NCBI GenBank assembly: GCA_977020255.1
Contig: CDROCS010001076.1
Span: 186,001 to 250,000 of the forward strand
DNA from: Obrimoposthia wandeli
Taxonomy: Eukaryota
Length of the DNA stretch: 64,000 nt
Direction: 5' to 3'
The notes beneath the pieces are model-generated. The model was not told the DNA's origin and did not search any database. It was given only the letters and a program-made list of their open reading frames with translations. This document shows, piece after piece, positions 29,799 through 29,942 of the stretch. The position numbers and the translations under genes are program-made. The stretch's first letter is position 1; each line of letters opens with the position of its first letter.

Positions 29799-29942
29799 GT
29801 TAATAATATTGATTTACTTAAAGTTTTTCATCAGGTTTTTGAAATTTAATTGATTTATTACCAGGTTTTGCTAATTAAGTATTCACAATTTAATTGATTT
29901 TTCATTAAAATTTCTAAATTGAATTCATTTTTTCCATTACAG
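29799..29942 (+). other. Spliceosomal GT-AG intron in PolB-B (144 nt, phase 1)
   Basis: Donor G|GTTAAT, acceptor TTTCCATTACAG|GT; removal restores LEPLNFFSIS-G-LSFASALK. Confidence 0.9.

What the first reader, a model, noticed from the sequence alone, without database searches (positions are those of the whole stretch)
29799..29942. The PolB intron could act as a splicing switch between a truncated TP-exonuclease protein and full polymerase
Seen: the intron lies just after the ExoIII-like motif (..DVYLLADVF) and before polymerase motif A (YID..NLYG). Retention gives an immediate stop in PolB-B (GGT TAA) and a stop after 13 codons in PolB-A. Established: the P-element third intron controls transposase versus repressor by tissue-specific splicing. 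Inference: regulated retention might yield a terminal-protein/exonuclease product (primer protein or repressor), with polymerase made only when spliced.
Basis: inference. Interest (0 to 1): 0.7.

Follow-up and report, generated by a model that had tools for sequence, protein, structure and literature searches.

The report
Intron splitting a Polinton DNA polymerase
One large branch of a virus-like transposon (Polinton/Maverick) in this genome carries a host-style intron exactly between the proofreading and copying halves of its DNA polymerase gene; it is most likely simply spliced out rather than working as an on/off switch, but no RNA was available to test that.

Summary
The intron is there as described: 29799-29942, 144 nt, GT..AG, phase 1; PolB-A has one at the same codon (10254-10383). 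It marks a clade: 3,867 pattern matches carry the exon end plus donor, 0 match an intron-free pattern, and the intron persists across groups whose synonymous sites are saturated. A predicted model puts it at the exonuclease/polymerase border (phi29 residue 191); exon 1 encodes terminal protein, vOTU protease and exonuclease.

The switch is not shown. Both window copies are dead. Stop positions fit chance, tails and lengths (39-592 nt) are not conserved, and no upstream silencer signature was found. The protease residues thought to free the terminal protein are kept. A young family without this intron thrives in the same genome. Best reading (0.7): one host-type intron gain, spliced constitutively.

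Open points: the border position, donors that avoid GTAAG, and a subfamily (774 matches) whose intron holds a TIR piece with AATAAA. No RNA run was listed.

Earlier notes of this scan describe 5' mini-introns in this polymerase, and a TIR motif inside it, on other DNA; my look-ups returned none on this internal intron.

The parts
29799..29942 (+). Internal GT-AG intron of PolB-B, phase 1, at the exonuclease/polymerase border (splicing predicted, not observed)
27410..27424 (+). Predicted first mini-exon of PolB-B with a start codon
   Evidence: same layout in relatives
27425..27458 (+). Predicted 5' mini-intron of PolB-B, 34 nt, GTAAG donor
   Evidence: GTAAG in 20 of 21 distinct 5' ends printed
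27459..29798 (+). Long exon upstream of the intron (called exon 1 in this report): Cys/His leader, linker, terminal-protein fold, vOTU, exonuclease with HNH-like insert; broken here by at least four frame changes and several stops
   Evidence: domains from a relative's natural reading frame
29693..29731 (+). ExoIII motif region; first catalytic Asp lost in this copy
   Evidence: Y742 and D746 invariant in 77 of 77 aligned rows
29943..32996 (+). Exon 2: polymerase half, broken by frameshifts, stops and an insertion
30125..30151 (+). Polymerase motif A (YIDINNLYG)
30807..32451 (.). 1.65-kb insertion that interrupts exon 2; holds a 304-aa minus-strand frame without a Pfam match
10254..10383 (-). 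Same-position intron in PolB-A, 130 nt, GT..AG
8847..12738 (-). PolB-A, a broken copy of another group of the same clade
22064..27231 (+). Upstream genes of the element that carries PolB-B: integrase (rve), a conserved frame I take as the minor capsid gene, major-capsid-like frame, a further conserved frame
   Evidence: capsid labels are recalled from motifs, not from a library match

Best explanation
A GT-AG intron interrupts the protein-primed DNA polymerase gene of one Polinton/Maverick clade at the exonuclease/polymerase border; it was likely gained once and is likely spliced out constitutively by the host spliceosome, so that working copies would make one terminal protein-vOTU-exonuclease-polymerase polyprotein. 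The terminal protein would then be freed by the element's own vOTU protease (published hypothesis), not by intron retention. Unspliced RNA would carry an early stop about 1.4 kb before the normal end and likely be degraded or be inert. Shown: position, phase, spread, conservation of both exons, the domain border in a predicted model, decay of the two window copies. Inferred: splicing itself, its being constitutive, single gain, protease release, decay of retained RNA.
For: Same codon in 53 of 60 sampled copies. With both ends located in 96 copies, AG in 87 (the donor G-G-T/C was fixed by my search pattern). Lengths 39-480 nt in all three frames, 213-592 nt in one subfamily. 3,867 exon-end-plus-donor matches (control 1) against 0 for an intron-free pattern. 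Between groups pN 0.12-0.26 and pS 0.69-0.86 in both exons, so exon 2 is under protein-level selection and must be joined. Intron-bearing rows form one clade in two quick trees (SH-aLRT 100, 22 rows; 99, 7 rows). Relatives are uninterrupted at the site: 30 of 30 assessable among 73 metagenome loci, 25 of 27 viral loci. Stops match shuffles in 5 of 7 groups (median P 0.22-0.69); tails differ (G, GL, GKF, GLYFTNFF). Four-fold-site identity next to the intron is 0.40 and 0.30 upstream and 0.18 downstream, within the 0.15-0.51 range of exon 1. U1 matches are 7-8 of 11, against 8 for the window's 5' mini-intron. vOTU Cys in 72 and His in 77 of 77 rows. A family without this intron has 150 of 150 scored matches uninterrupted at 96-100% identity. 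The site offers a protosplice CCAG|G in 15 of 37 uninterrupted relatives.
Against: No RNA: splicing was never observed. The intron sits right at a domain border (model residues 464-776 match phi29 polymerase 5-191, Z 15.3, rmsd 2.9, 175 aligned); with 20-43 MAG|G sites per gene that is roughly a 1-in-30 coincidence, counted after the fact. Internal donors are GTTTGT, GTTAG or GTAAAT, with GTAAG in 1 of 60, whereas the 5' mini-intron has GTAAG in 20 of 21. GTTTGT is not enriched among short intron-like strings (695 against control 706). Two groups stop at once (median P 0.07-0.08 against shuffles). A subfamily carries AAGAATAAA in a TIR piece inside the intron in 26 of 26 located copies. piRNA-driven retention of the P-element intron needs no particular sequence (PMC7776569 passages), so my sequence tests cannot exclude it.
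Confidence: 0.7

Rival explanations
1. Element-encoded switch: regulated retention gives a terminal protein-vOTU-exonuclease product that supplies extra primer protein or acts as a dominant-negative repressor, and polymerase is made only when the intron is removed.
For: Intron at the exonuclease end; exon 1 folds as compact domains (mean pLDDT 85.3; LF/PAD-like fold Z 8.4 and OTU folds Z 6.2-6.8); kept through synonymous saturation; donors avoid GTAAG unlike the 5' mini-intron. Each new genome consumes terminal protein while polymerase is catalytic (own knowledge).
Against: No conserved tail, stop, length or frame; no conserved pseudo-donor or synonymous constraint; a family without the intron thrives. 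Known splits of terminal protein from polymerase fall before the vOTU domain, not after the exonuclease (10.1101/2024.03.18.585575).
Confidence: 0.1
2. Host-imposed block: the intron is ordinary for the element, but piRNA-guided chromatin slows its splicing and so silences the polymerase; the retained product has no function.
For: piRNAs promote retention of the P-element third intron without a specific target sequence (PMC7776569 passages); non-consensus donors would make the intron sensitive.
Against: No data on RNA or piRNA here; the clade reached thousands of copies while keeping the intron.
Confidence: 0.1
3. Intronic polyadenylation in one subfamily: a copy of the inner end of the TIR, with AATAAA, lies in sense orientation in the intron and could end the RNA after exon 1.
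For: 774 pattern matches (up to 2 mismatches); the piece occurs in the intron, behind the gene and at the far end in 5 of 5 elements mapped; AAGAATAAA in 26 of 26 located introns; 1 of 30 loci runs from the intron straight into the right TIR and keeps an open exon-1 frame of 811 codons.
Against: Limited to one subfamily and absent from both window introns; the AATAAA unit is missing from the right TIR of one element read, so it is not clearly the gene's own poly(A) signal; AATAAA is absent from the introns of 5 of 7 groups and in 1 of 26 in a sixth; exon 2 is kept in 27 of 30 loci.
Confidence: 0.07
4. Not an intron: an insertion that splits the gene in two, with the polymerase half translated on its own from an internal Met.
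For: A Met lies about 30 codons into exon 2 in 5 of 7 groups.
Against: GT and AG are kept while the interior diverges; removal restores the exact P-G-L spacing of uninterrupted relatives; the first nine codons of exon 2, upstream of that Met, are conserved; the same Met is part of a motif in uninterrupted relatives.
Confidence: 0.03

Closest known systems
Polinton/Maverick (Alpha adintovirus-type) pPolB with TP-vOTU-EXO-PALM layout (10.1101/2024.03.18.585575, passages and section 7; PMC8502044, passages)
   Same: PF03175 in both exons, LF/PAD-like terminal-protein fold, OTU fold with Cys and His, integrase, ATPase-like and capsid-like neighbours, TIRs.
   Different: The gene is split by an intron between exonuclease and polymerase and by a 5' mini-intron. 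Intact vertebrate Mavericks have no introns (PMC8097293) and the core genes of a nematode Maverick are called intronless (10.1101/2022.07.12.499685).
Drosophila P element third intron (IVS3; PMC7776569, passages)
   Same: An intron whose retention would cut off the catalytic C-terminal part and leave an N-terminal nucleic-acid-binding part.
   Different: Regulation is shown there, with an exonic silencer, pseudo-5' splice sites, PSI and hrp48, and a tested 66-kDa repressor. None of this is shown here, and the enzyme is a polymerase with its own protease.
Introners in dinoflagellate Maverick/Polinton-like elements (10.1101/2025.03.18.643946, passages)
   Same: Spliceosomal introns inside full-length Polinton-like elements.
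   Different: Those are mobile intron families, mostly inserted after integration. Here one position is inherited by a whole clade, with unrelated interiors.
Adenovirus E2B (preterminal protein and polymerase from one transcription unit; PMC7851563, passages) and the coral polinton with a separate TP gene
   Same: Terminal protein and polymerase can be uncoupled in this lineage. That adenovirus does it by alternative splicing is recalled; the passages read say only that E2 encodes both.
   Different: There the split lies between terminal protein and vOTU; here the intron lies after the exonuclease.

Membership tests
Polinton/Maverick (Alpha pPolB) | Protein-primed family B polymerase, PF03175 | tested here: met
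   fold match to phi29 polymerase
Polinton/Maverick (Alpha pPolB) | N-terminal TP (LF/PAD fold) and vOTU with Cys and His | tested here: met
   (4ir1 Z 8.4, rmsd 2.3, 92 aligned; OTU Z up to 6.8, middling values); tested on a relative, L034
Polinton/Maverick (Alpha pPolB) | rve integrase | tested here: met
   PF00665 at 5788-6153, whose duplicate lies at 22064 upstream of PolB-B
Polinton/Maverick (Alpha pPolB) | Packaging ATPase and jelly-roll capsid genes | tested here: inconclusive
   Conserved frames with a Walker A motif and capsid-like starts lie in the expected order; labels are recalled, no library match or fold was obtained
Polinton/Maverick (Alpha pPolB) | Terminal inverted repeats | tested here: met
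   About 0.8-kb TIRs in two related elements; not mapped for the window copies
Polinton/Maverick (Alpha pPolB) | 6-bp target-site duplication; adenain-type protease | not tested
   not looked for
Spliceosomal (U2-type) intron | GT..AG ends, pyrimidine-rich acceptor, removal restores a conserved frame | tested here: met
Spliceosomal (U2-type) intron | Junction seen in RNA | not testable with these tools
   no RNA holder listed
Group I/II self-splicing intron | Ribozyme fold matching Rfam; length of hundreds of bases | tested here: not met
   No such family in 4 loci at E up to 0.1; 39-48 nt long in group C
P-element IVS3-type regulated retention | Retention gives a truncated frame with complete N-terminal domains | tested here: met
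P-element IVS3-type regulated retention | Conserved exonic silencer with pseudo-5' splice sites upstream | tested here: inconclusive
   None seen: best U1 match 5-7 of 11 in the last 120 nt, no higher than upstream windows, no shared position; no synonymous-site peak. Short silencers could escape this test.
P-element IVS3-type regulated retention | Tissue- or piRNA-dependent splicing; truncated protein represses | not testable with these tools
   needs RNA and protein data

The most novel reading that the evidence does not exclude
A virus-like element sets the ratio of primer protein to polymerase, or makes its own repressor, by RNA processing at an intron placed exactly between exonuclease and polymerase: by retention, or in one subfamily of several hundred copies by polyadenylation at a TIR piece captured in the intron. 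This would be a P-element-like switch in a self-replicating DNA element.
Probability: 0.13. Interest if true: 0.75.

Novelty: new variant of a known kind. Interest (0 to 1): 0.4.

Why it matters
Polinton core genes are described as intron-free in vertebrates and in a nematode element. A clade that gained an intron inside its polymerase and kept it through thousands of insertions would depend on the host spliceosome, which ties its expression to the nucleus. It also means that open-frame screens score such elements as broken. The intron gives a simple assay point (spliced share by tissue, stage and piRNA state) for the open question of how hosts or the elements limit Polinton replication. The particular copy in this window is a dead relic.

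Tried and rejected
RNA: no RNA holder listed. The four runs of unrecorded kind cover the intron like the exons and show no GT..AG joint at the predicted ends among the 15 joints printed (31 more not shown), so they read as DNA and say nothing on splicing. No reads were laid on a young copy.

Spliced products in protein collections: best identity to exon 2 among all fetched proteins was 61%, so no member of this clade was found. The search took only proteins of 845-2410 aa and so selects uninterrupted frames (93 of 120 with the motif located, 6 more read); I rely on the DNA loci instead. In one search, 73 of 78 further hits had the motif and none ended at the Gly. One metagenome scan and one viral scan found no relative.

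Donor strength from genome-wide counts: GTAAGT 1,232 against control 569, GTTAGT 4,919 against 1,290, GTTTGT 695 against 706. The first two are dominated by multicopy sequences, so this is a weak test.

An exon-2 deletion family: suggested by L059 and L067, rejected as the rule; 27 of 30 loci keep exon 2 behind a longer intron (L282 and L283 are one copy).

Sequence search of PDB with a full-length relative: 0 matches. Foldseek on the whole exon-1 model: none at E up to 0.001.

Trees are quick trees without bootstrap; group E was in neither, at most 4 rows per donor type entered the first, and no test of monophyly was run.

Literature: searches showed no report of this intron. Two recalled paper ids for the first Polinton descriptions were not held, Repbase is not available, and no supplements were read, so a prior annotation may exist.

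Full report
Observation. The 144-nt stretch 29799-29942 starts GT, ends TTACAG, is 81% AT against 58% in its flanks, and splits the Gly codon of the S-I-P-G-L motif. PolB-A has a 130-nt intron at the same codon (10254-10383, minus). ExoIII starts 35 codons upstream and motif A lies at 30125-30151. Both window genes are relics: at least four frame changes and several stops lie upstream of the intron in PolB-B, exon 2 holds a 1.65-kb insertion, and PolB-A is similarly broken. The question therefore concerns the lineage, not these copies.

What the element is. The window lies in a 1.35-Gb genome; earlier notes call it a probable planarian, which I did not test. Both exons match PF03175. Integrase, ATPase-like and capsid-like frames lie upstream (the last two labels are recalled), and two relatives have TIRs of about 0.8 kb. 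It is a Polinton/Maverick of the Alpha pPolB type (PMC8502044, passages).

The intron marks a clade. A pattern for the exon end plus donor has 3,867 matches (control 1); a pattern for the intron-free form has 0 (the second is stricter). Of the first 60 listed matches, 53 had exon 2 located behind an intron of 39-480 nt, with AG in 47; the other 7 had deletions or insertions and none was contiguous. Pooling loci, 96 copies fall into 7 groups, with AG in 87. Between groups pN is 0.12-0.26 and pS 0.69-0.86 in both exons (38 and 28 stop-free copies): synonymous sites are saturated, both halves are under protein-level selection, and the intron ends persist while the interiors differ. Intron-bearing rows form one clade in a polymerase-side tree (22 rows, SH-aLRT 100) and an exonuclease-side tree (7 rows, 99); both are quick trees and lack group E. 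Relatives from metagenomes are uninterrupted at the site: 30 of 30 assessable among 73 loci and 25 of 27 viral loci, one being frameshifted and one not located. A single gain is the simplest reading. The site offers CCAG|G in 15 of 37 uninterrupted relatives.

What exon 1 encodes. An AlphaFold2 model of the natural exon-1 frame of a relative (777 aa, mean pLDDT 85.3) matches phi29 polymerase residues 5-191 with its last 313 residues (Z 15.3, rmsd 2.9, 175 aligned). The phi29 exonuclease domain ends near residue 189 (recalled), so the intron is at the border. Residues 125-410, folded alone (pLDDT 92.7), match the little-finger domain of Pol IV (4ir1, Z 8.4) and several OTU proteases (Z up to 6.8). 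These are the TP and vOTU domains described in 10.1101/2024.03.18.585575 (passages and section 7). That paper proposes that vOTU cuts TP off the polymerase; the catalytic Cys is in 72 and His in 77 of 77 aligned rows.

Tests of the switch. (a) Stops: median codons to the first stop are 1, 1, 2, 3, 8, 11 and 14 in the seven groups, against 6.5-9.5 in shuffles; median P is 0.07 and 0.08 for the two groups whose donor itself spells the stop, and 0.22-0.69 for the rest. (b) Tail peptides differ between groups. (c) Lengths run from 39 to 592 nt in all frames. (d) No pseudo-donor at a shared position and no rise of four-fold-site identity near the intron, unlike the P-element silencer (PMC7776569, passages). 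(e) U1 matches are 7-8 of 11, as for the 5' mini-intron of the window gene (8; U1 sequence recalled). (f) A family without this intron has 150 of 150 scored matches uninterrupted at 96-100% identity and lies on another branch. (g) The gene has a second, 5' mini-intron in all five main groups (agrees with notes e1-9133770 and e1-9220336), and other notes report spliced accessory genes (e1-9589678, e1-8592045; not tested), so these elements seem to use splicing routinely.

What keeps the switch open. The border position is about a 1-in-30 event among 20-43 MAG|G sites per gene (counted after the fact). Internal donors have GTAAG in 1 of 60, the 5' mini-intron in 20 of 21; the exon letters forced by Pro-Gly may compensate (inference). 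piRNA-driven retention needs no special sequence. One subfamily (774 matches at up to 2 mismatches) carries a piece of the inner TIR in the intron, with AAGAATAAA in 26 of 26 located copies of 29 (probably the motif of note e1-8591962). One of 30 loci has lost exon 2 and keeps an 811-codon exon-1 frame. The same subfamily shows that the element spread with a much longer intron. No RNA holder was listed, so none of this was tested on transcripts.

Comparison and novelty. Intact vertebrate Mavericks have no introns (PMC8097293, passages), a nematode Maverick's core genes are intronless while cargo genes have introns (10.1101/2022.07.12.499685, passages), and dinoflagellate elements carry mobile introners (10.1101/2025.03.18.643946, passages). 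Passages of 10.1101/2023.08.22.554363, PMC7851563, PMC6431247 and PMC12220804 added nothing on this intron. Ten searches showed no report of an inherited intron inside the catalytic part of a Polinton polymerase; the founding papers, Repbase and supplements were not seen. Look-ups in this scan's notes returned none on the internal intron.

Verdict. The intron is a real, clade-wide feature and a new variant of a known kind. Constitutive splicing 0.7; element-encoded switch 0.1; host-imposed block 0.1; intronic polyadenylation in one subfamily 0.07; not an intron 0.03. Interest 0.4; 0.75 if a processing switch were shown (probability 0.13).

Noticed in passing
window 27425-27458: A second, 34-nt predicted mini-intron just after the start of PolB-B; relatives of all five main groups have one, with GTAAG in 20 of 21.
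   Followed up: partly
L051 2749-3079; L261-L290; L291-L305: A subfamily (774 pattern matches) carries a variable tandem piece of the inner TIR inside the intron, in sense orientation; one locus (L059 = L262) has lost exon 2, apparently by recombination with the right TIR.
   Followed up: partly
L112 4010-5089 minus; L131-L160: A separate young pPolB family without this intron, at least 150 copies, on another branch; it shows a likely intron in its 5' leader.
   Followed up: partly
start of exon 2, window about 29970-30015: The intron-bearing clade has a Ser/Thr/Ala/Pro-rich stretch of about 5-13 extra residues shortly after the intron, absent from uninterrupted relatives.
   Followed up: no
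window 30807-32451: 1.65-kb insertion in PolB-B with a 304-aa minus-strand frame (31231-32148) that has no Pfam match.
   Followed up: no
window 4542-8327 and 20776-24563: 3.8-kb duplicate at 99.7% identity, with a further 0.8-kb tandem piece at 24561-25419.
   Followed up: no
exon 2, alignment columns 105-135 and 180-210: Four-fold-site identity rises to 0.57-0.80 against about 0.3 elsewhere; few sequences, could be noise or an overlapping signal.
   Followed up: no
window 36800-42106 minus: A third element fragment with integrase and ATPase-like frames, next to BIR and RING frames; replication-protein-A-like frames at 15675-17066 and a BBS5 piece at 59830-60258.
   Followed up: no
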